IMG/VR virus record: IMGVR_UViG_3300035102_000435
DNA from: a virus
Length of the DNA: 49,493 nucleotides
Direction: 5' to 3' (one strand)
The position numbers and the translations under genes are program-made. Every line of letters begins with the position of its first letter. Position 1 is the stretch's first letter. The notes below the pieces were generated by a model. It was not told where the DNA came from, did no database searches, and saw only the letters and a list, made by a program, of their open reading frames with translations. This document shows, piece by piece, positions 1-49,493 of this stretch.

Positions 1-127
1 AGTCAAAAGAGAAAAGAATTTTATCAGAAATATAAAGATCAGGAAGAAAGCGAAGGAAATTCAGGAGGTGGAGTACTTTGAAAAAATCAGAAATGGTTAA
101 AATGCTTAGTTTTCTTGACAATTATTA
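1..127. repeat. Terminal direct repeat, identical to 49367..49493 (circular or circularly permuted genome; likely assembly overlap)
   Basis: Read directly: the first 127 nt of the window match the last 127 nt exactly. Confidence 0.9.
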
Positions 128-34607: not shown

Positions 34608-34925
34608 ATGAAAGGATTTCCTAAAAAATTAAAGACGAAAAAAGATTATGAAAATATCGTCGATGATTTCGGCTACACTCAAAAAGTAAAAGAAGCTTAT
34701 CAGGCATTGTTAGAAACTGATCAGCATTATGTATTTGATAAAGAACTGGCAACTGAGGATGAAAGGACTGGCCCGCTCCCTGATTATAAAGTAATGAAAG
34801 AAGATGAACAGGAAACCGAGACAGTCAGAATTGTTCAGTACAAATTAGTAGATAACCCTGACTCAAAGCTAAAAGAGTTAGGTTTTACAGAATTCGAAGT
34901 TCAAGAGGTGATTGACTTATGCTAA
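34608..34925 (+). CDS. Hypothetical protein (tail fibre region)
   Basis: 105-aa acidic ORF. Confidence 0.35.
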   Translation: MKGFPKKLKTKKDYENIVDDFGYTQKVKEAYQALLETDQHYVFDKELATEDERTGPLPDYKVMKEDEQETETVRIVQYKLVDNPDSKLKELGFTEFEVQEVIDLC

Positions 34926-35956
34926 GTGTAGTAGGAGTAGATAGTCCTGCTTTTTATAATGCAGAGGGAAATATAGAAAAGACAGCAGGAGTCCAGGGAG
35001 TAGACATCCCGGCCTTGGCATTAAGAATTAATAGGCAAAACTTAAAAGTTGAATCAGCATCAGCACTAACTGCCGCAGATAATGATGGCAGTTTTTCTAG
35101 TTTTGCGATGGGTACTGATTATTATATCTATGCCTGTCAACCAGCAAGTGGTATTGAGCCAGATTTTGTGCTTTCAGCTAACTCTACTTATCCAGATGCA
35201 ATACCTTCCGGAGTTACACCCAGCGTTGATAATACCAGGAAGATTGGTGGCTTCCATTATGGACGAGTAAGGAACAGTTCAACAGCTTCTGATGTATCAG
35301 AAAGTATTGTACCTAACTCAGTCTGGGACCTTGTTAATCGTCCAAAGTGCTCCCCTGAGGGGATGGCTAAGGTCGGCAACCTTTGGGTTGATATTTATCT
35401 AGCATCTGATGATGGTAACGGTGGTGTTGAATCAAAATATAATGCAACACCTATTACCGGTACTGAGGGCTTAAGCTGGTACAGTTTTGCAGAGAGGTTT
35501 GTGAAGGTAGATAAGCGGATGGCATCAATGTCAGAGTGGACAGCATTAGCTCAGGGCAGCCCTCAGGGTAATGATGGCGACAATGTCAATGCCTGGTCTG
35601 CTACAAGTAACAGTGGTAGAACATCTACTGGTTCTGTAACTAATGCTATCAGTAATTATAATATTGTCGATTGTGCCGGTAATGTTTGGGAATGGTTAGA
35701 TGAGGTTTCAATTAGACAGGATTCTACAACCTGGCAATGGTATGATCCAGCAACTGACTTTAATGAAACAATGGAGTCTGGATGGGACCAGCTTGGTGAT
35801 ATGTACTTACCTAATGCAGATGGTCTTTCAGCTTTCCGCGCCGGTGGCCATTGGGATGATGGTGTTCGCTGTGGTGCTCGCGCGTTGAGCCTGATCGACA
35901 AGCCTTGGTACGTGTACTCGACTTTCGGGTCTCGTGGTGTCTGTGATCCTCTGTAA
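34919..35956 (+). CDS. DGR target: tail fibre/receptor-binding protein with C-terminal C-type-lectin/FGE-like variable domain
   Basis: 345 aa; GNLWVDIY and GNVWEWLDE motifs typical of the FGE/CLec fold; the last ~38 codons form the variable repeat. Confidence 0.8.
   Translation: MLSVVGVDSPAFYNAEGNIEKTAGVQGVDIPALALRINRQNLKVESASALTAADNDGSFSSFAMGTDYYIYACQPASGIEPDFVLSANSTYPDAIPSGVTPSVDNTRKIGGFHYGRVRNSSTASDVSESIVPNSVWDLVNRPKCSPEGMAKVGNLWVDIYLASDDGNGGVESKYNATPITGTEGLSWYSFAERFVKVDKRMASMSEWTALAQGSPQGNDGDNVNAWSATSNSGRTSTGSVTNAISNYNIVDCAGNVWEWLDEVSIRQDSTTWQWYDPATDFNETMESGWDQLGDMYLPNADGLSAFRAGGHWDDGVRCGARALSLIDKPWYVYSTFGSRGVCDPL
35833..35945 (+). repeat. DGR variable repeat (VR)
   Basis: 113 bp aligned without gaps to 36359..36471; the 11 differences all fall at positions where the template has adenine. 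Confidence 0.85.
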
Positions 35957-36039
35957 TTCGTGATTTGATAATCTGTTTTTTTATTAAGGTGTGAATATTT
36001 ATCAAAAATCTAACAATACATCAAAAAGTATATGATCTA

Positions 36040-36336
36040 ATGGTTTGGTTTTTCCCGATCGTGGATAACTTTCCGAAGTATGAAAAATTTGTACTTTGCA
36101 CTCAAATAAAGAACTCTATATTAGATATTTCAAAAATCATTATTGAAGCAAATAAAACCAGAGGTAGTAAAGTGAGGTTTCTGCATCGGGTAGATGTCCG
36201 GCTTGAGCAATTAAGAATGCTAATCAGGTTTGCTCATGAAAGGCATTACTTAAACCATTCTAAATATGAAAATGTATCTAAAAAAGTTGATGAAATAGGA
36301 CGCATGCTTGGGGGTTGGATCAAGTCATGCGATTAA
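36040..36336 (+). CDS. avd: Accessory variability determinant (Avd-like four-helix-bundle protein)
   Basis: 98-aa ORF between VR and TR; the C-terminus (VDEIGRMLGGWIKS) resembles the Bordetella phage Avd C-terminus (EVGRILGSWIAR), from memory. Confidence 0.7.
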   Translation: MVWFFPIVDNFPKYEKFVLCTQIKNSILDISKIIIEANKTRGSKVRFLHRVDVRLEQLRMLIRFAHERHYLNHSKYENVSKKVDEIGRMLGGWIKSCD

Positions 36337-36358
36337 ATATTTGGGGTTAAGAGCGTTT

Positions 36359-36471
36359 TTTCCACGCCGGTGGCAATTGGAATGATGGTGTTCACTGTGG
36401 TGCTCGCGCGTTGAACCTGAACAACAAGCCTTGGAACGTGAACTCGAATATCGGGTCTCGTGGTGTCTGTG
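36359..36471 (+). repeat. DGR template repeat (TR)
   Basis: Non-coding copy of the VR; 22 adenines, many in AAC/AAT triplets in the VR-aligned frame, 11 of which differ in the VR. Confidence 0.85.
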
Positions 36472-36495
36472 CTCTTCATGCAAAAATCTTTCAGA

Positions 36496-36519
36496 CAGTA
36501 GTGGTTACGGCCACTACTG
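36496..36519 (+). other. Hairpin in the TR-RT spacer
   Basis: Perfect 9-bp inverted repeat CAGTAGTGG / CCACTACTG around a 6-nt loop, 25 nt downstream of the TR. Confidence 0.4.
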
Positions 36520-36888
36520 CAGTGTTTCTAGAAATGAGGAACAGGCTTTTAATCCCTGCTGAGATACTTTTTTAAAGTCAATCCAGCAAAAAATTTAGAT
36601 TGCTAGCCAGGCAGCAAGTATTGAAAAATAGAAAGTTGTCACAGTCAGCGACTGCCCGTTCTCATTTGAGCGGGCTTTTAATTTCCACCCATAAATAGAG
36701 AAAGTGGTGATAATATTCCAAAAAAATTTAAGAATCTATATCCAAAAATATACGATTTTGAGAACCTATACATTTCTTATGAAAATGCTAGAAAATCTAA
36801 ACGATATACTAACCAGGTCCTTAAATTTACTAATCAGTTAGAAAGCAATTTAATTAACATTCAAAATCAGCTCATCTGGAAAGAATAT

Positions 36889-37827
36889 TTGCCTGGCGAA
36901 TATCATCAGTTCTATGTCTATGAACCTAAGCAGCGGTTAGTTATGGCACTTCCTTTTGAGGATAGAGTGGTCCAGTGGGCTGTATATAGAAATTTAAATC
37001 CTATATTTGATAAAACTTTTTATGAACATAGCTGCGCCTGCCGGATTGGTAAAGGTACTCATTATGCAGCGGACCAGCTGCAGCACTGGATGAGAAAACT
37101 AGATAGAAGCCCAGGGGAAACTTATTATCTCAAAGCTGATGTTGCAAAATATTTTTACAGGATAGATCACAGAACTCTTTTCGAAATCATCAAAAGAAAG
37201 ATTAGCTGCAGAGATACTTTAGAGCTGATCTGGAAGATCATTAAAAAAGATGATGGTGAATTCGGAATACATCTCGGTGATCATTACTTTGAAAGAGATA
37301 AAATCAAAGGAATTGGAATCCCGATTGGTAACTTAACCAGTCAATTATTTGCTAATGTTTATCTCGACTTCATGGATAAATTTATAAAACATAATTTACG
37401 GGCTAAACACTACGTCAGATATATGGACGATTTTGTTATCCTGGGAAAATCAAAGAAAGAACTACATACAATCAGACAGGAGATAGAAATATTTCTTGCT
37501 GATTATTTAAAACTTGAACTTAACAACAAAACTACTGTTGATAATATCTGGAATGGAATAGATTTCTGCGGATATGTCACTTATCCACCATATAGAAAAT
37601 TGAGAAAAAGTACAAAAAGGAAACTCAAAAGACGGCTTAAATATCTTCAGAAAAAGTATTATAAAGAGGAGGTGGAGATCAATGAAATAAATGCCAGCGT
37701 TCAAAGTTATCTTGGAATATTAAAACATTGTGACAGCCATAATCTGACAATGTCGGTTATTGGCCAGTTAGAGGATGAAATACTTAATCAACTAGATTTA
37801 GAGGACGTTCGAGAACAAAGAAGTTGA
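36889..37827 (+). CDS. DGR reverse transcriptase (N-terminus likely extends upstream)
   Basis: YMDD catalytic motif (YVRYMDDFVILG) and the DGR-type IGNLTSQLFANVY motif; coordinates are from the first canonical start, but conserved N-terminal sequence continues in frame back to about 36700. Confidence 0.9.
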   Translation: MPGEYHQFYVYEPKQRLVMALPFEDRVVQWAVYRNLNPIFDKTFYEHSCACRIGKGTHYAADQLQHWMRKLDRSPGETYYLKADVAKYFYRIDHRTLFEIIKRKISCRDTLELIWKIIKKDDGEFGIHLGDHYFERDKIKGIGIPIGNLTSQLFANVYLDFMDKFIKHNLRAKHYVRYMDDFVILGKSKKELHTIRQEIEIFLADYLKLELNNKTTVDNIWNGIDFCGYVTYPPYRKLRKSTKRKLKRRLKYLQKKYYKEEVEINEINASVQSYLGILKHCDSHNLTMSVIGQLEDEILNQLDLEDVREQRS

Positions 37828-37890
37828 TGCGATATACAGATAAGCAAATACTTTTGCCTTGTAGCAGGGCTTGGTTTGAGGTGAAAACAC

Positions 37891-38352
37891 GTGAATGCAA
37901 AATGGAGACCATTTTTAGACGAAATAATTTATTACTGGAACAAATTTTTTGAGCATACAGTTATAAAAAGTTTTCTTGCGGTGGGGGGCACATTGCTGAC
38001 TATGATGTTTGGAGATATGAATGCAGCTATGCAGGGCTTTTTGATTTTGTTGGCAGCAGATTATATTACAGGAATTATAAAAGCAAGCAAAAAAGGTCAG
38101 CTATCAAGCTGGATGTCCCGTAAGGGGTGGGGGAAAATAGCGACTTATGCAATTGTAATATCGCTTGGCCACCTGGTAACTCAAATAGGGATGAAAGGAA
38201 TGAGAGATTTTGTTCTTCTCTGGGCCGGAGCAACTGAAGCTATATCTATTTTAGAAAACTGTGACGAGCTCGGTGTCGCTATTCCCGAGTTTATGCGAGA
38301 AAAACTTTTACGAACAAAAGAAAATAAATTTGGAGAGGAGATTAACCGATGA
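37891..38352 (+). CDS. Putative holin
   Basis: 153-aa membrane protein directly upstream of the amidase gene, with stop-start overlap. Confidence 0.55.
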   Translation: MNAKWRPFLDEIIYYWNKFFEHTVIKSFLAVGGTLLTMMFGDMNAAMQGFLILLAADYITGIIKASKKGQLSSWMSRKGWGKIATYAIVISLGHLVTQIGMKGMRDFVLLWAGATEAISILENCDELGVAIPEFMREKLLRTKENKFGEEINR

Positions 38353-38927
38353 AAATAACTGATGATGCAGGACATGGAGGTTCTGACCCTGGAGCTGTCG
38401 ACCCAAAAGAAGTTGAAAAAGAAGATGGTATTTATGAAGATGAAATTTACTCTGAAGAGAGCGATATAAATTTGAAAGCAGCTAAGATTTTTAAAGAAAT
38501 AGCTGAATTTAAAGGTCATGAAATTATTATGACCAGAAAAGAAGATAAGTATATCCCTTTGTATCAAAGAAGTGATTTAGCAAATAAAGAAAAAACAGAT
38601 ATATTTGTTTCTTTTCATTGCAATTCTGTGGGCTTTCCTACTGCTAAAGGAATAGAAACTCTATATTATCCAACTTCTAAAAACGGGAAAAAACTTGCTG
38701 AATGTATTCAAGATAATTTAATGAAAGTTGCGGATACACCAGATAGAGGAATAAAGTCCAGAGATAATTTACACGTCTTAGAAGAAACAGATATGCCGGC
38801 TGTTTTAATAGAACTTGGCTTTATTTCTAACCCTGCAGAGGAAAAACTCTTAAATGAAAAAGAATATTTATATCTTCTTTGTGAAGCAGTGTTAAATGGA
38901 GTTGATGATTATGCCAGAAACAGTTAA
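38349..38927 (+). CDS. N-acetylmuramoyl-L-alanine amidase (endolysin)
   Basis: 192 aa; motifs DAGHGG..DPGA, FVSFHCNS, AVLIELGFISN characteristic of Amidase_3-type cell-wall amidases. Confidence 0.8.
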   Translation: MKITDDAGHGGSDPGAVDPKEVEKEDGIYEDEIYSEESDINLKAAKIFKEIAEFKGHEIIMTRKEDKYIPLYQRSDLANKEKTDIFVSFHCNSVGFPTAKGIETLYYPTSKNGKKLAECIQDNLMKVADTPDRGIKSRDNLHVLEETDMPAVLIELGFISNPAEEKLLNEKEYLYLLCEAVLNGVDDYARNS

Positions 38928-39144
38928 TGAAGTCAATCTTAAAGAGGACTCAAACGATAACGGAATTCCCGACTGGGTAGAAGCTACAGCGACTTATCTT
39001 ATAGCTGCTATTTGTGTAGCTCTTGCTGTTTCTGGGTATGTTAAAAATAATTTAGACCCTGCATCTATAAGGTGGTTGATGAGTTTTGCTGCAGCTCTTT
39101 CCGGAGGTAGAGATTTGATTAAAGGTTTTGTAGGGGGACGATAA
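38896..39144 (+). CDS. Small membrane protein in the lysis cassette (start uncertain)
   Basis: 82-aa ORF with a central hydrophobic helix. Confidence 0.35.
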   Translation: MELMIMPETVNEVNLKEDSNDNGIPDWVEATATYLIAAICVALAVSGYVKNNLDPASIRWLMSFAAALSGGRDLIKGFVGGR

Positions 39145-39145
39145 A

Positions 39146-39556
39146 ATGCTAAAAACTAAGCATAAAATTATATTGATTGTTATTGCTGTAATTATAGCCC
39201 TGGCACTGCTGTTTTTTGTTGGCAAGGAAATAGCTGCAGGTTTTGCAGCTGTATTAGGTATATTTGGTTTTAGTGGTGGCAAAGCTCTTAAGAAAAAATC
39301 TGATGAAGTTAAGAAAAAAGCTGATCAGGAAAAAGAAGTGGCTAAAAAAGTAGAAAATAATATTGATGATCGGAATAAAAAAGATAAGCAGCTGCAGCGG
39401 GATGATCAGGAGAGAGCTGAAATTGCTGAAGAATTAGAAAATGAATCTGATGATAGAGAAAAAGAAATGCAAAAAATAAGAGATGATCAGGCAGCAAGAA
39501 AAGAAAAAGGTGAAAAATTAAATGCTCGACTAGAAGAATTAAAAGGGGATGATTAA
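39146..39556 (+). CDS. Membrane-anchored coiled-coil protein (spanin-like architecture)
   Basis: 136 aa; N-terminal transmembrane helix followed by a charged, coiled-coil-like region. Confidence 0.4.
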   Translation: MLKTKHKIILIVIAVIIALALLFFVGKEIAAGFAAVLGIFGFSGGKALKKKSDEVKKKADQEKEVAKKVENNIDDRNKKDKQLQRDDQERAEIAEELENESDDREKEMQKIRDDQAARKEKGEKLNARLEELKGDD

Positions 39557-40028
39557 AATTAAAAAACTGTTAATCATTATTATAGCCTTAGTTTTGATTT
39601 TCTTCCCGGGACAAATTAATGCTCAGGATCAATCTGATGTAAGTTACCAAAAACTATTGGAGCGCAACCAGGAGTTAACTGAAATTGCAGAAGAATATAA
39701 AAAAATGTGGGAAGAAGCTGAAAAACAATTAAATATAGCTGATGAATTATATTCTAAAGAAAAATCTGAAAAAGAAAAGTTTAAAATGCTATATGAAGAG
39801 GAAAGAGAAGATAAAAAAGAATATAGACAGTTATATCAAAGCAGTAATGAAGATCTAAAAAAAGTTTTAAAGTCTAATGAAAGATTACAATCTTATATTG
39901 ACAGTTTAAATGAAACTATTGACAAACATTTAGGAAAAAGTAATATATCTGTATCAACCGGAATCGGTATAAATGCAAAAAATCCAGATGAAAGTCTATT
40001 CATTGTAGGCTTTGAATTTGGGATTTAA
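39549..40028 (+). CDS. Secreted coiled-coil protein (spanin-like architecture)
   Basis: 159 aa; N-terminal signal-peptide-like segment ending ...AQ, coiled-coil body, C-terminal aromatic beta-strand FIVGFEFGI. Confidence 0.4.
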   Translation: MIKIKKLLIIIIALVLIFFPGQINAQDQSDVSYQKLLERNQELTEIAEEYKKMWEEAEKQLNIADELYSKEKSEKEKFKMLYEEEREDKKEYRQLYQSSNEDLKKVLKSNERLQSYIDSLNETIDKHLGKSNISVSTGIGINAKNPDESLFIVGFEFGI

Positions 40029-40057
40029 TATAAATAATTTTTGTAGCGGAGGTAAAC

Positions 40058-40288
40058 ATGAGATACCTTATGTTTTTATTGTTAATAATTTTAGATTTAA
40101 TTTTTAGCGCAGGAACTTCATATTTTATTTTAACTAGAAAAATGAAAAGAATTGATAAAAATTCAAGTTGCGGAACCGGGAGCATCGGAGAAGCAATTAT
40201 TGCTTGGGTAGTTGTTGTGGTTATTTTTATAATATTACTTGCTGTATATGGTTCATTATTGTATTGGATCATGTTTCTTTTACTTTAA
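40058..40288 (+). CDS. Hypothetical small membrane protein
   Basis: 76-aa ORF with two hydrophobic helices; RBS GGAGG. Confidence 0.35.
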   Translation: MRYLMFLLLIILDLIFSAGTSYFILTRKMKRIDKNSSCGTGSIGEAIIAWVVVVVIFIILLAVYGSLLYWIMFLLL

Positions 40289-40298
40289 AGGAGGTCTT

Positions 40299-40511
40299 AT
40301 GGCTATTCTAAAAGTTTTACTTATTATAATAATTTCAATTATAATTTCCGGATTGCAAAGTTATTCAGTTTATAAATGGCTATTAAGTGGAAATCACAAA
40401 GAACCATTTAATCCATTTGTGCCCCAGGAAAACTCTTTAATAGGCGCTGCAGTTGCCGGAATTATCTTTGCATCTGTAAATACAACTATATTACATTGGA
40501 TTATATTCTAA
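40299..40511 (+). CDS. Hypothetical small membrane protein
   Basis: ORF in track from 40239; ATG at 40299 preceded by AAGGAGG; about 70 aa, hydrophobic. Confidence 0.35.
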   Translation: MAILKVLLIIIISIIISGLQSYSVYKWLLSGNHKEPFNPFVPQENSLIGAAVAGIIFASVNTTILHWIIF

Positions 40512-40652: not shown

Positions 40653-41342
40653 ATGGCTAGACAAATTTGTGTTTACGTTAGTGATTGGCAGTTTGAGAAA
40701 TTAAAAAAAGAAGATAACAAGTCAGAGGTTGCAAGAAAGGCATTTGATTTATATTATAAAAAGGAGGGAAAAGAAATGAAAATTATTGAAATTGTAGAAT
40801 TAACAAAAAGTGGTGTAAAAGTTAGCGATCAGGACAATCCAATGGCGGTTAGATATTTTAATGACAATGGAAATTTACCAGATGGAAATTTTGACGAAAA
40901 CCAAATAGCTGGCGAATGGGTGCATCTTGAAGGACAACACGCAAATTTTGAAATTTATGCTTATAGATCTATAGACAATAGTACACTCGTTCCAGCTGAT
41001 ATTTTCAAAGAAAAATTAATTAGTCAAATTGCAGGCGCCAGAATTACATTAACTAAAGCTGAATTAGAAGAAAAAGCAGAAATTAATGAAGTTTGGGAAG
41101 AAATAGCGACCGAAAGCATCCAGGCCACAAAAGAAAAAACTTTTTCAAAAGATGGTTGGAGAGATATCGAATTAACTGATGATTATCTATATCAGCTAGA
41201 ATTTGATGAGGGTGGCATAAGATATTATGAAGGTACAGAAGAAAGATATTTAGAGGAACCGGTCGGTGAAGAAGGATGGGATGAACCACAATGGTCTCCT
41301 AAAGAAATTAAAATGCTAATAGATGGGCTTGAAAATGAATAA
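40653..41342 (+). CDS. Hypothetical protein with N-terminal ribbon-helix-helix-like segment fused to an acidic domain
   Basis: 229-aa ORF; the N-terminal ~40 aa look CopG/Arc-like; an in-frame ATG at about 40775 with its own AAGGAGGG could give a separate product. Confidence 0.45.
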   Translation: MARQICVYVSDWQFEKLKKEDNKSEVARKAFDLYYKKEGKEMKIIEIVELTKSGVKVSDQDNPMAVRYFNDNGNLPDGNFDENQIAGEWVHLEGQHANFEIYAYRSIDNSTLVPADIFKEKLISQIAGARITLTKAELEEKAEINEVWEEIATESIQATKEKTFSKDGWRDIELTDDYLYQLEFDEGGIRYYEGTEERYLEEPVGEEGWDEPQWSPKEIKMLIDGLENE

Positions 41343-41916
41343 ATTAATTATACCTGGTCGTATTCTAGGAATATTCTGGACTACGGCCAGCTGGTCCTCT
41401 ACAGAAAAATCTATTCAAATAACTAATAAGGACTATGAAATTGTTAAAAAAGTGCAAAGTTATCTTTCTGAAATTAATTTTGAATATACTATATACCAAG
41501 GACCAACAGAAAATAAGCGCCCAGGTTATGAATATGATTATTACAGAATGAAAATATACAATAGTGATTTCATTGACCTGTTAAGAAATGAGTACAACTG
41601 GCGAGGGAGGAGAGAAAAAAAGAGATATTACCCTAATTTCGATTCTTATCAGCAGGTAGTTGAATTTTTGAGATATTATATTAATTCTCAGCACACTTCT
41701 GCTGAAATATCAGTTAATTGGGGCGACGGAAAGCATAAGCGATTAAAGGTATTTGTTAACAAAAATTTTGCAGATATTCTAAATGAAAGAATAAGCGATA
41801 TTGTAGGGGTTAATGAAAACAAAATATACAAACATTCTCAATCAGATGTATTAATGTATCTTTTTTATCAAAGCAAAAAAGATGTAGAATTAATATTAGA
41901 TTTTATAAATAAATAG
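41323..41916 (+). CDS. Hypothetical protein
   Basis: 197-aa ORF, Tyr/Arg-rich. Confidence 0.45.
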   Translation: MGLKMNKLIIPGRILGIFWTTASWSSTEKSIQITNKDYEIVKKVQSYLSEINFEYTIYQGPTENKRPGYEYDYYRMKIYNSDFIDLLRNEYNWRGRREKKRYYPNFDSYQQVVEFLRYYINSQHTSAEISVNWGDGKHKRLKVFVNKNFADILNERISDIVGVNENKIYKHSQSDVLMYLFYQSKKDVELILDFINK

Positions 41917-48505: not shown

Positions 48506-49447
48506 GTGGCTGGATACTTCAAACTCTATCGAGATATATTTGAAAGCAGCATATGGATGCAGCCAGTTGATTTAAGATTATTTATATACCTAATTGGACA
48601 GGCCCGCTATAAAGAAGAACCAAACACCAAATATAAAGCTTATGGAATCATTATTAAACGCGGGCAGTTCCTCAGGTCCTATAGAAAAATAAGAGATGAT
48701 CTTGAGTATTTTGAGAACAATGCTCTTAAGCATTATAGCCTTTCAGTAATCAAACGTTCGGTGGATAGATTGGTAGAACAAGAAAGAATAGAAATTGAAC
48801 AAACTAAGCTTGGAACACTCTTTACAGTCGTTAATTACCGGCAGTATCAGGATTATCAAGAAGATAACAAAGAGCTTGGAACGGACTTGGAACAGGGTTG
48901 GAACGGAGTTGGAACACCTGCGGAACAATACAGTAAGAAGGGGAAAGAAGGGGAAAGAAGGGAGAAAGAAAAACGTTCGGACTCTGAAAGTCCGAATTCT
49001 CTCTCTGAAAAAGAAGAATATGAACCTAAATATGGTGAAGAAAGTATTCCCTATAAAGCAGCTAAATATTTAAGGGGAAGAATTTTAGAAAATAATAAAA
49101 GGCAGCCGGTTCCTGATCCAAACCCTGAAGACTTAGAAGATTGGGCTATTGAATTAGAAAGATTAAATAGATTAGGCCCTAAAGGAAAAAGAAACGCTGG
49201 ATATAGCTGGGAAGAGATAAGAAATATAATGGACTGGTGCCAGGAAGATGAGTTCTGGAGTGGTAACATTTGTTCAGCTCCAACCTTCAGGGACCAAATA
49301 ACTAAATTAGAAAATCAAATGAGAAGAGATTTGAATAATAATAAGAAAAATAGTTCTAAAAAGAAAAGTCAAAAGAGAAAAGAATTTTATCAGAAATATA
49401 AAGATCAGGAAGAAAGCGAAGGAAATTCAGGAGGTGGAGTACTTTGA
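48506..49447 (+). CDS. Putative replication initiator/replisome organiser
   Basis: 313 aa; N-terminal DNA-binding-like domain, low-complexity linker whose DNA carries iteron-like repeats, C-terminal domain with YSWEEIRNIMDWCQ-type sequence. A two-domain initiator with the origin inside the gene is the lambda O / SPP1 G38P pattern. Confidence 0.55.
   Translation: MAGYFKLYRDIFESSIWMQPVDLRLFIYLIGQARYKEEPNTKYKAYGIIIKRGQFLRSYRKIRDDLEYFENNALKHYSLSVIKRSVDRLVEQERIEIEQTKLGTLFTVVNYRQYQDYQEDNKELGTDLEQGWNGVGTPAEQYSKKGKEGERREKEKRSDSESPNSLSEKEEYEPKYGEESIPYKAAKYLRGRILENNKRQPVPDPNPEDLEDWAIELERLNRLGPKGKRNAGYSWEEIRNIMDWCQEDEFWSGNICSAPTFRDQITKLENQMRRDLNNNKKNSSKKKSQKRKEFYQKYKDQEESEGNSGGGVL
48876..48926 (+). repeat. 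Iteron array (candidate replication origin)
   Basis: TTGGAAC at 48876, 48887, 48898 and 48909 (11-bp spacing) plus GGAAC at 48922; followed by GAAGGGGAAA tandem repeats (48938..48968) and an 8-bp-stem inverted repeat (48976..48996). Confidence 0.55.
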
Positions 49448-49493
49448 AAAAATCAGAAATGGTTAAAATGCTTAGTTTTCTTGACAATTATTA
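49367..49493. repeat. Terminal direct repeat, identical to 1..127
   Basis: Exact 127-nt identity with the window start. Confidence 0.9.

What the first reader, a model, noticed from the sequence alone, without database searches (positions are those of the whole stretch)
34919..37827. Complete diversity-generating retroelement aimed at the tail fibre
Four DGR components sit in the canonical order at the end of the tail module: a receptor-binding gene whose C-terminus is the VR (35833..35945), an Avd-like gene (36040..36336), a non-coding TR (36359..36471) and an RT (to 37827). The RT carries YMDD and the DGR-specific IGNLTSQLFANVY motif. This implies programmed hypervariation of the receptor-binding tip, i.e. 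tropism switching, in a lambda-like-head, contractile-tail temperate phage.
Basis: partly seen in the sequence, partly recalled or inferred. Interest (0 to 1): 0.92.

Follow-up and report, generated by a model that had tools for sequence, protein, structure and literature searches.

The report
Active tail-fibre diversity-generating retroelement
This is a complete, evidently active diversity-generating retroelement of the classic Bordetella-phage type in a temperate Halanaerobium phage; it rewrites 13 codons at the tip of a receptor-binding tail protein, which makes it a well-documented but ordinary new member of a known kind.

Summary
VR (35833-35945) and TR (36359-36471) are 113-nt repeats with 11 mismatches, all at TR adenines (P about 1e-9).

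- **Target:** a homologue of Bordetella phage Mtd.
- **Accessory gene:** passes NCBI's Avd equivalog model.
- **RT:** its best solved relative is BPP-1 bRT, far ahead of group II intron RTs. It carries the IGNLTSQLFANVY and YMDD motifs.
- **Gene order:** fibre, mtd, avd, TR, spacer, RT, lysis, as in BPP-1.

In the window's own lineage, four target alleles are identical over residues 1-306 and differ only at the 13 adenine-bearing codons. In a sister lineage, two contigs differ at 11 of 6289 aligned bases, all inside VR.

Two gene boundaries need correcting. Avd most likely starts at ATC 36001 and the RT at ATT 36715. Both are non-canonical start codons, conserved in relatives.

The TR-RT spacer is a structured RNA. 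It matches Rfam RT-14 and has strong covariation. Its elements map onto the BPP-1 DGR RNA, and a terminator-like hairpin follows it.

The host is Halanaerobium. Verdict: a new member of a known kind, of modest interest.

The parts
34919..35956 (+). Target gene: a 345-aa Mtd-like receptor-binding tail protein. Its last 38 codons are the VR.
   Evidence: Pfam mtd_2nd, 66.6 bits. phmmer to PDB Mtd 1yu0/2iou at E 8e-16 over residues 53-345, including the C-terminal FGSRGVCDPL against FGARGVCDHL. PHROG 11262 'tail protein', E 7e-59.
35833..35945 (+). Variable repeat (VR), 113 nt.
   Evidence: 11 mismatches to TR, all at TR adenines. Eight alleles in relatives vary only at the 13 adenine-bearing codons.
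35925..35956 (+). IMH-like 3' end of VR: 21 nt identical to TR (TCGGGTCTCGTGGTGTCTGTG), after which VR and TR diverge.
   Evidence: Alignment. Identification as an IMH is by analogy with BPP-1 (inference).
36001..36336 (+). avd, 111 aa if it starts at ATC 36001. Gene callers give ATG 36040, 98 aa.
   Evidence: NCBIfam DivGenRetAVD 122.1 bits (cutoff 80), and Pfam bAvd 113.9 bits. Both profiles begin about 10 residues upstream of ATG 36040. The homologous codon is ATT, ATA or TTG in relatives. SD AAGGTG lies at 35986-35991.
36343..36354 (+). Upstream strand of the duplex that brackets TR (the counterpart of the BPP-1 avd:Sp 'cPRT Stop' duplex).
   Evidence: RNAduplex gives 12 bp with 36545-36556, -18.7 kcal/mol. 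The duplex sits at the same position in 8 relatives with compensatory sequence changes.
36359..36471 (+). Template repeat (TR), non-coding, 22 adenines, 53% G+C.
   Evidence: It is 100% conserved in L001, L002, L006 and L007 while their VRs differ.
36472..36650 (+). Spacer (Sp) RNA with four elements: a hairpin with a UACG tetraloop (36496-36519); a strand pairing with the TR 3' end (36534-36546); a stem-loop followed by an A-run (36557-36593); and a long stem-loop (36601-36650).
   Evidence: Rfam RT-14, full-length match, 33.9 bits here (below the gathering score of 48.1) and 50-63 bits in five relatives. In the alignment, 96% of cells are paired and 24 of 47 pairs carry double changes, against 1-4 in slid controls.
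36654..36683 (+). Terminator-like hairpin plus T-run, between Sp and the RT ribosome-binding site.
   Evidence: Conserved with compensatory changes in L009-L014; absent in L015 and L016.
36715..37827 (+). DGR reverse transcriptase, 370 aa, most likely starting at ATT 36715. SD GTGGTGAT lies at 36704-36711.
   Evidence: phmmer to BPP-1 bRT (8ub7) at E 2.2e-53, aligned from residue 3 to residue 3. ATT or ATC occupies this codon in all 15 relatives read at this position; TTG or ATG occupies it in more distant ones. The 58 codons before TTG 36889 evolve as coding sequence.

Best explanation
This is a functional BPP-1-type diversity-generating retroelement of a temperate, contractile-tailed Halanaerobium phage.

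Proposed mechanism, with steps 1-4 inferred from the BPP-1 system:
1. An RNA spanning the short stretch upstream of TR, TR itself and the structured spacer is made. It probably ends at the hairpin plus T-run at 36654-36683.
2. This RNA folds around a complex of the RT and pentameric Avd. The spacer pairs with the 3' end of TR to prime cDNA synthesis in cis. It also pairs with the stretch just upstream of TR to stop synthesis.
3. The RT copies TR and misincorporates at adenines.
4. The mutagenised cDNA replaces VR at the 3' end of the Mtd-like gene. TR stays unchanged.

The result is recoding of 13 codons in the C-terminal lectin-like domain of the receptor-binding protein, about 8.5e12 possible protein variants, and hence changes in host-receptor specificity.

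Shown here: the anatomy, the homologies, the conserved RNA structure, and natural VR alleles confined to the adenine codons. Inferred: the priming chemistry, the homing step and the link to tropism.
For: - **Adenine-only mismatches:** 11 of 11 in the window; 30 of 30 across three alleles, with A>G 15, A>T 11 and A>C 4.
- **Adenine placement:** codon positions 1 and 2 only, giving 13 variable codons and 8.5e12 proteins.
- **Components:** Avd equivalog model passed. Target homologous to Mtd. RT closest to bRT, with IGNLTSQLFANVY, YMDD and the conserved NTE Lys29.
- **Synteny:** same gene order as BPP-1 and Chromohalobacter phage YPCBV-1.
- **Natural variation, own lineage:** P0121-P0124 are identical at residues 1-306 and differ only at the 13 predicted codons.
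- **Natural variation, sister lineage:** L001 against L006 has 11 differences in 6289 nt, all in VR. L002 against L006 has 12 in VR and 2 elsewhere. TR is invariant.
- **Relatives:** VR/TR pairs in the 13 loci (window included) where both repeats could be read show 5-18 mismatches each; within the repeat proper these fall at adenines of the downstream (TR) copy, apart from 1-2 in L012, L013 and L015 and the diverged 5' edge of the L010 repeat.
- **Spacer RNA:** covariation, the duplex bracketing TR, and a match to Rfam RT-14. The elements correspond to those described for BPP-1 (bioRxiv 10.1101/2023.10.23.563531).
Against: - No hairpin or cruciform lies downstream of VR, unlike BPP-1 (z-score 0.5).
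- The RT-14 match in the window itself is below Rfam's gathering score (33.9 against 48.1 bits).
- Neither avd nor the RT has a canonical start codon at its homology-defined N-terminus, so expression is unproven.
- A terminator-like hairpin sits between the template RNA and the RT.
- VR alleles come from assembled contigs of different samples, not from read-level data of one population.
- Receptor binding by the target is inferred from homology and from its position in the tail module.
Confidence: 0.93

Rival explanations
1. A decayed or domesticated DGR. The parts are recognisable but no longer active, and the VR/TR differences are fossils of past activity.
For: Neither avd nor the RT has an ATG, GTG or TTG start at its conserved N-terminus. 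A terminator-like hairpin precedes the RT.
Against: - Nearly identical genomes carry different VRs: 11 of 11 differences in 6289 nt fall inside VR.
- Four alleles in the window's own lineage sit on an otherwise identical protein.
- RT catalytic motifs are intact.
- The 58 N-terminal RT codons are under purifying selection.
- The ATT/ATC start with its SD is conserved in the 15 relatives read at this position.
Confidence: 0.04
2. The RT belongs to a group II intron, retron or defence RT, and the 113-nt repeat is an unrelated duplication.
For: NCBIfam's best-scoring model is group_II_RT_mat, because that library has no DGR-RT model. Databases name relatives 'retron-type' or 'group II intron' RT.
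Against: - The group II model scores 133.6 bits against a cutoff of 300. Retron St85 scores 44 against 235, and the Drt models are far below cutoff.
- bRT scores 185 bits against 84 for the best group II RT in the PDB.
- At 370 aa the protein is close in length to the 328-residue bRT chain and well short of the 562- and 599-residue group II intron maturase chains, and Pfam finds no domain in it besides RVT_1.
- Avd lies next door.
- The repeat mismatches are adenine-only (P 1e-9).
Confidence: 0.01
3. The DGR is active, but the diversified protein is not the primary host-receptor binder. It could be a secondary adhesin or a binder of another ligand, in which case variation would not amount to tropism switching.
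For: No experiment links this protein to adsorption. A separate 186-aa tail-fibre N-terminal-domain protein and a 105-aa protein of unknown function lie just upstream. The first ~50 residues do not match Mtd.
Against: Homology to Mtd covers both the second domain and the variable C-terminal domain. The gene is the last one of the baseplate/fibre module, the same position as in BPP-1 and YPCBV-1.
Confidence: 0.1

Closest known systems
Bordetella phage BPP-1 DGR (mtd-avd-TR-brt tropism-switching cassette)
   Same: - Same gene order, including the tail-fibre gene upstream and the lysis genes downstream.
- The target is homologous to Mtd, with VR at its extreme 3' end.
- Avd and RT are homologous, and the RT aligns from residue 3 to residue 3 with the same motif-4 sequence.
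[quoted passage not shown]
   Different: - The host is a halophilic anaerobic Bacillota-type bacterium, and the virion has a contractile tail.
- Target identity to Mtd is only 28%.
- TR is 113 nt with 22 adenines; the BPP-1 record annotates a 134-nt repeat.
- No hairpin lies downstream of VR.
- The spacer matches Rfam RT-14, not RT-10, the motif found in BPP-1 (PMC5737381).
- avd and the RT appear to use AUC and AUU starts.
- A terminator-like hairpin precedes the RT.
Chromohalobacter phage YPCBV-1 DGR
   Same: Closest deposited phage target, at 40% identity over 85% of the protein. Same order: baseplate genes, small ORFs, target, Avd, RT, at the end of the tail module.
   Different: The RT is only 36% identical. 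The host is proteobacterial. Its target is annotated as a SUMF1/EgtB/PvdO-family enzyme rather than as a tail protein.
Bacillus phage BalMu-1 reverse transcriptase
   Same: Closest RT among deposited phage genomes, at 51.6% identity over 94% of the protein. It also lies near a genome end.
   Different: It is annotated only as a retron-type RT. No Mtd-like target was found in that record. Its DGR status was not examined here.
Rfam RT-14 RNA (RF02921), one of the RT-1 to RT-19 motifs of Weinberg et al. 2017
   Same: A full-length match (model positions 1-144) starts at the base right after TR. Five relatives score above the gathering threshold. The source paper showed that RT-10 is the BPP-1 TR-RT spacer and speculated that other RT motifs serve other DGRs (PMC5737381).
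   Different: The window's own copy scores 33.9 bits, below the gathering score of 48.1. I found no paper linking RT-14 to DGRs.
Group II intron reverse transcriptases (e.g. GsI-IIC RT, 6ar1)
   Same: Next-best solved relatives, with the same finger/palm/thumb core and N-terminal extension.
   Different: Much weaker match (84 against 185 bits). The sequence fails TIGR04416 (133.6 against 300 bits). Pfam finds no domain besides RVT_1. Motif 4 reads IGNLTSQ, as in bRT.

Membership tests
Diversity-generating retroelement (DGR) | A TR/VR repeat pair whose differences fall at adenines of TR | tested here: met
   11 of 11 in the window, P 1.2e-9. 30 of 30 over three alleles. In the related loci, mismatches within the repeat proper fall at TR adenines, apart from 1-2 in L012, L013 and L015 and the diverged 5' edge of the L010 repeat.
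Diversity-generating retroelement (DGR) | An RT of the DGR clade (motif 4 [I/L]GxxxSQ, no maturase or endonuclease domains) | tested here: met
   The best PDB relative is bRT, E 2e-53, with IPIGNLTSQLFANVY aligned to IPIGSLTSQLFANVY. The protein is 370 aa, and Pfam finds only RVT_1 in it. Group II, retron and Drt models are all far below cutoff. No phylogeny was built.
Diversity-generating retroelement (DGR) | An accessory variability determinant (Avd) next to TR | tested here: met
   NCBIfam NF033474 DivGenRetAVD (equivalog) 122.1 bits, cutoff 80. Pfam bAvd 113.9 bits, cutoff 40. PHROG 3206 'Avd protein of DGR'.
Diversity-generating retroelement (DGR) | VR at the 3' end of a target ORF with a C-type-lectin-like variable domain | tested here: met
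   VR covers the last 38 codons. Sequence homology to Mtd runs over residues 53-345, including the variable domain. The fold itself was not modelled.
Diversity-generating retroelement (DGR) | An invariant TR with varying VR in natural populations (evidence of mutagenic homing) | tested here: met
   Eight VR alleles. TR is identical in L001, L002, L006 and L007, with one substitution in L009. Variation is confined to the 13 adenine codons. This is contig-level, not read-level, evidence.
Diversity-generating retroelement (DGR) | cis-acting spacer RNA downstream of TR that primes and bounds cDNA synthesis | tested here: met
   The conserved structure is supported by covariation, and so is the TR-bracketing duplex. 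Priming itself cannot be tested with these tools.
BPP-1-type DGR specifically | A GC-rich IMH at the VR 3' end with a hairpin/cruciform downstream | tested here: not met
   A 21-nt identical stretch (62% G+C) followed by VR/TR divergence is present. No stable hairpin lies downstream of VR: -1.4 kcal/mol, z-score 0.5.
Rfam RT-14 RNA (RF02921) | Score at or above the gathering threshold of 48.1 bits | tested here: inconclusive
   The window scores 33.9 bits (E 0.006-0.016), full length. The homologous spacers of L011 and L013-L016 score 50.4-63.4 bits.
Group II intron RT/maturase | TIGR04416 at or above 300 bits, with flanking intron RNA domains | tested here: not met
   133.6 bits. No group II intron family matched in the Rfam scan of 35700-37000.
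Retron RT | A retron RT model at or above its cutoff, with an msr/msd RNA | tested here: not met
   NF038233 scores 44.1 bits against a cutoff of 235. No retron RNA family matched.

The most novel reading that the evidence does not exclude
In this Halanaerobium phage clade, both trans-acting DGR genes are translated from weak near-cognate start codons: avd from AUC/AUU/AUA and the RT from AUU/AUC, each behind a strong Shine-Dalgarno. In most members the RT also sits behind an intrinsic-terminator-like hairpin that ends the template RNA. Together these would form a built-in throttle that keeps the mutagenic RT-Avd complex scarce relative to its RNA. The same data assign the orphan Rfam motif RT-14 to the role of a DGR spacer (priming) RNA.
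Probability: 0.5. Interest if true: 0.45.

Novelty: new member of a known kind. Interest (0 to 1): 0.33.

Why it matters
- **A natural example of DGR activity.** Several otherwise identical genomes differ only at the predicted 13 codons. The host group, Halanaerobium, appears with 'diversity-generating' in only two papers of the searched library, both on human gut phages.
- **Annotation.** Standard gene callers truncate both Avd (98 instead of 111 aa) and the RT (312 instead of 370 aa) because neither has a canonical start codon. DGR surveys that rely on called proteins may mis-size or miss such elements.
- **An orphan RNA motif.** The match of the spacer to RT-14 gives that Rfam motif a likely function.
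- **Limits.** None of this changes what is known about how DGRs work.

Tried and rejected
1. **A -1 frameshift on the A7 run (36720-36726) from GTG 36704/36707 to make the RT.** Rejected. The upstream GTG is in a different relative frame in L014, L019 and L020. It runs into a stop before the A-run in L009. The GTGAT-to-ATY spacing varies between 3, 4 and 5 nt among relatives, as expected of an SD and not of coding sequence.
2. **An alternative genetic code (TGA read through) to extend avd to GTG 35989.** Rejected. The upstream stop in the RT frame is TAA (sequence), and the holin ORF ends at TGA in an ATGA overlap with the amidase start.
3. **A hairpin or cruciform downstream of VR.** None found.
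4. **A second VR elsewhere in the genome.** None found.
5. **Nucleotide-level relatives among 50,697 deposited phage genomes.** Only a 152-nt RT stretch of BalMu-1 matched.
6. **An assembly chimera across the DGR.** Considered because a JGI contig of the same length ends at window position 36051. Rejected: an independent Logan contig (L004) spans that point at 100% identity, and the window carries a 127-nt terminal repeat typical of a circular assembly.
7. **Literature on non-canonical starts in DGRs, on RT-14 and DGRs, and on Halanaerobium DGRs.** Nothing relevant was found.
8. **Not done.** No structure prediction of the target and no RT phylogeny; the sequence homology was judged sufficient.
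Full report
**Observation**

The 113-nt repeats at 35833-35945 (VR) and 36359-36471 (TR) align without gaps. They differ at 11 positions, and every one is an adenine in TR. TR has 22 adenines in 113 nt, so the chance of this pattern is 1.2e-9. The repeat is the only long direct repeat in the region, and TR has no other copy in the genome. TR adenines occupy only codon positions 1 and 2, mostly in AAY codons. This gives 13 variable codons and about 8.5e12 possible proteins. After the last variable adenine, the two repeats share 21 identical bases (TCGGGTCTCGTGGTGTCTGTG) and then diverge.

**Components**

- **Target.** The ORF at 34919-35956 (345 aa) matches Pfam 'Mtd second domain'. It also matches the solved Bordetella phage Mtd structures over residues 53-345 at E 8e-16, right to the C-terminal FGSRGVCDPL.
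- **Avd.** The next gene passes NCBI's equivalog model for DGR Avd (122 bits, cutoff 80) and Pfam bAvd.
- **RT.** Its best solved relative is BPP-1 bRT (8ub7, E 2e-53, 185 bits). The best group II intron RT scores 84 bits. The RT is far below the curated cutoffs for group II, retron and Drt models. IPIGNLTSQLFANVY and YMDD align with the same bRT motifs.
- **Order.** The order is fibre gene, target, avd, TR, RT, lysis genes. BPP-1 and Chromohalobacter phage YPCBV-1 have the same order.

**Gene boundaries**

Both accessory genes lack a canonical start at their homology-defined N-termini.

*RT.* The frame is open from 36682, but the first ATG, GTG or TTG is TTG 36889. Four lines of evidence point to ATT 36715 as the start:
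- Residues from K 36721 align with bRT residue 3 onward, including Lys29 of the N-terminal extension.
- The 58 codons before TTG 36889 change mostly at third positions among relatives.
- The codon at 36715 is ATT or ATC in the 15 relatives read at this position. It is TTG in L024 and ATG in more distant homologues whose proteins begin MKR.KNLY.
- It lies 3-5 nt after a GGTGAT-type Shine-Dalgarno.

I first considered a -1 frameshift on the A7 run. I rejected it because the upstream GTG changes frame or hits a stop in several relatives.

*Avd.* Both profiles start about ten residues before ATG 36040. The homologous first codon is ATC here, ATT in L014, L019 and L020, ATA in L015, and TTG in L011-L013 and L018. 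I therefore place avd at 36001-36336 and the RT at 36715-37827. These starts are inferences from comparison, not demonstrated.

**Template RNA**

The 243 nt between TR and the RT are not a plain spacer. An Rfam scan gives a full-length match to RT-14 that starts at the base after TR. It scores 33.9 bits here, below the gathering score of 48.1, and 50-63 bits in five relatives.

An alignment of nine spacers supports a common structure. 96% of cells are paired, against 34-51% when partners are slid. 24 of 47 pairs have changes on both sides, against 1-4 in the slid controls.

The elements follow the order described for the BPP-1 DGR RNA (bioRxiv 10.1101/2023.10.23.563531):
1. A 10-bp hairpin with a UACG tetraloop just after TR (36496-36519). 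That paper reports putative Avd-binding stem-loops of this kind in 207 of 278 DGRs.
2. A spacer strand (36534-36546) that pairs with the 3' end of TR.
3. A 12-bp duplex between 36545-36556 and 36343-36354, just upstream of TR. It is kept by compensatory changes in relatives. It is the counterpart of the 'cPRT Stop' duplex.
4. A stem-loop followed by a conserved A-run.
5. A long stem-loop.

Weinberg et al. showed that the related motif RT-10 is the BPP-1 spacer. They speculated that other RT motifs serve other DGRs (PMC5737381). This locus suggests RT-14 is one of them.

A terminator-like hairpin with a T-run (36654-36683) follows, immediately before the RT ribosome-binding site. It is conserved in most relatives.

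**Activity in nature**

Public assemblies hold close relatives of this phage.
- In the window's own lineage, four target proteins (P0121-P0124) are identical over residues 1-306. They differ only at positions 307, 311, 313, 314, 317, 324, 326-328, 331, 333, 335 and 336. These are exactly the 13 codons that hold TR adenines.
- In a sister lineage, L001 and L006 differ at 11 of 6289 aligned bases, all inside VR. L002 and L006 differ at 12 positions in VR and 2 elsewhere.
- TR is identical in all of them.
- More distant relatives also carry VR/TR pairs whose mismatches are almost entirely at TR adenines.

**Context and host**

The window is a circular assembly with a 127-nt terminal repeat, 49,366 bp unique. 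It encodes:
- a lambda-type large terminase, portal, ClpP-like protease and capsid;
- a tail sheath (weak Pfam match, below the curated cutoff) and a tail tube;
- P2/Mu-type baseplate proteins;
- a holin and an amidase;
- a large serine recombinase and a CI-like repressor.

Related RT loci lie in genomes of Halanaerobium saccharolyticum, H. salsuginis and a Halanaerobiales MAG, so the host is Halanaerobium. No deposited phage genome is similar at the DNA level. Only nine records hold an Mtd-like protein.

**Mechanism**

By homology with BPP-1, RT-Avd binds the avd-proximal/TR/spacer RNA and primes cDNA synthesis in cis near the TR 3' end. It copies TR with misincorporation at adenines and stops at the bracketing duplex. 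The cDNA then replaces VR. These steps are inferred. The anatomy, the RNA structure and the outcome (adenine-codon-restricted alleles on identical backgrounds) are shown.

**Comparison and novelty**

All defining DGR features that could be tested were met. The only BPP-1-specific feature not met is a hairpin downstream of VR. This is a new member of a known kind. The cited preprint refers to a survey that identified about 31,000 DGRs (bioRxiv 10.1101/2023.10.23.563531), and a phage tail target is the archetype.

The points beyond the ordinary are these:
- the paired near-cognate start codons;
- the terminator-like hairpin before the RT;
- the link to RT-14;
- a 4-kb block (36339-40321: TR, spacer, RT and the genes downstream, including the lysis genes) that is 100% identical between two phage lineages whose flanks differ by 5-8%.

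**Scores**

Interest is 0.33. The most novel reading not excluded is a translational and transcriptional throttle on RT-Avd, plus RT-14 acting as a DGR spacer RNA. I give that reading a probability of 0.5 and an interest of 0.45 if true.

Noticed in passing
window 36704-36717 and 35986-36003: Both DGR accessory genes appear to start at non-canonical codons behind good Shine-Dalgarno sequences: the RT at ATT 36715 and avd at ATC 36001. Gene callers therefore truncate them to 312 and 98 aa. The pattern is conserved across the Halanaerobium clade. More distant homologues have ATG or TTG at the same codon.
   Followed up: yes
window 36472-36648: The TR-RT spacer is a full-length, sub-threshold match to the orphan Rfam motif RT-14. 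Relatives score above the gathering threshold. This suggests RT-14 is the spacer (priming) RNA of this DGR clade, as RT-10 is for BPP-1.
   Followed up: yes
window 36654-36683: An intrinsic-terminator-like hairpin (GCCCGTTCTCATTTGAGCGGGC plus a T-run) lies between the spacer RNA and the RT ribosome-binding site. It is conserved with compensatory changes in L009-L014 and absent in L015 and L016. How the RT is transcribed past it is unknown.
   Followed up: partly
window 36339-40321: A block of about 4 kb (TR, spacer, RT, holin, amidase and downstream small ORFs) is 100% identical to a sister phage lineage (L001, L002, L006, L007). The flanks on both sides differ by 5-8%. The left breakpoint lies between 36338 and the start of TR. 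This looks like a recent mosaic exchange.
   Followed up: partly
window 1-127 and 49367-49493: A 127-nt terminal direct repeat shows that the window is a circular assembly of a 49,366-bp genome. A JGI contig of the same length (Ga0377182_000318) is the same genome, broken at window position 36051, inside avd.
   Followed up: yes
window 35833-35945 and 36359-36471: VR and TR form a G+C island: 53% in TR and 44.5% in the target gene, against 34% for the genome and 33% for the RT gene.
   Followed up: no
window 34608-34925: A 105-aa ORF with no family match lies between the tail-fibre N-terminal-domain gene and the Mtd-like gene, and overlaps the latter's start by 7 nt. Chromohalobacter phage YPCBV-1 has two small hypothetical ORFs at the same place. 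It may be a fibre adaptor or chaperone.
   Followed up: no
window 41323-41916: A 197-aa ORF with a LAGLIDADG-like domain (Pfam E 7e-7) lies between the lysis and lysogeny modules. It may be a homing endonuclease. It sits about 1 kb beyond the right edge (40321) of the 100%-identical block, in a region where L001 matches the window only patchily.
   Followed up: no
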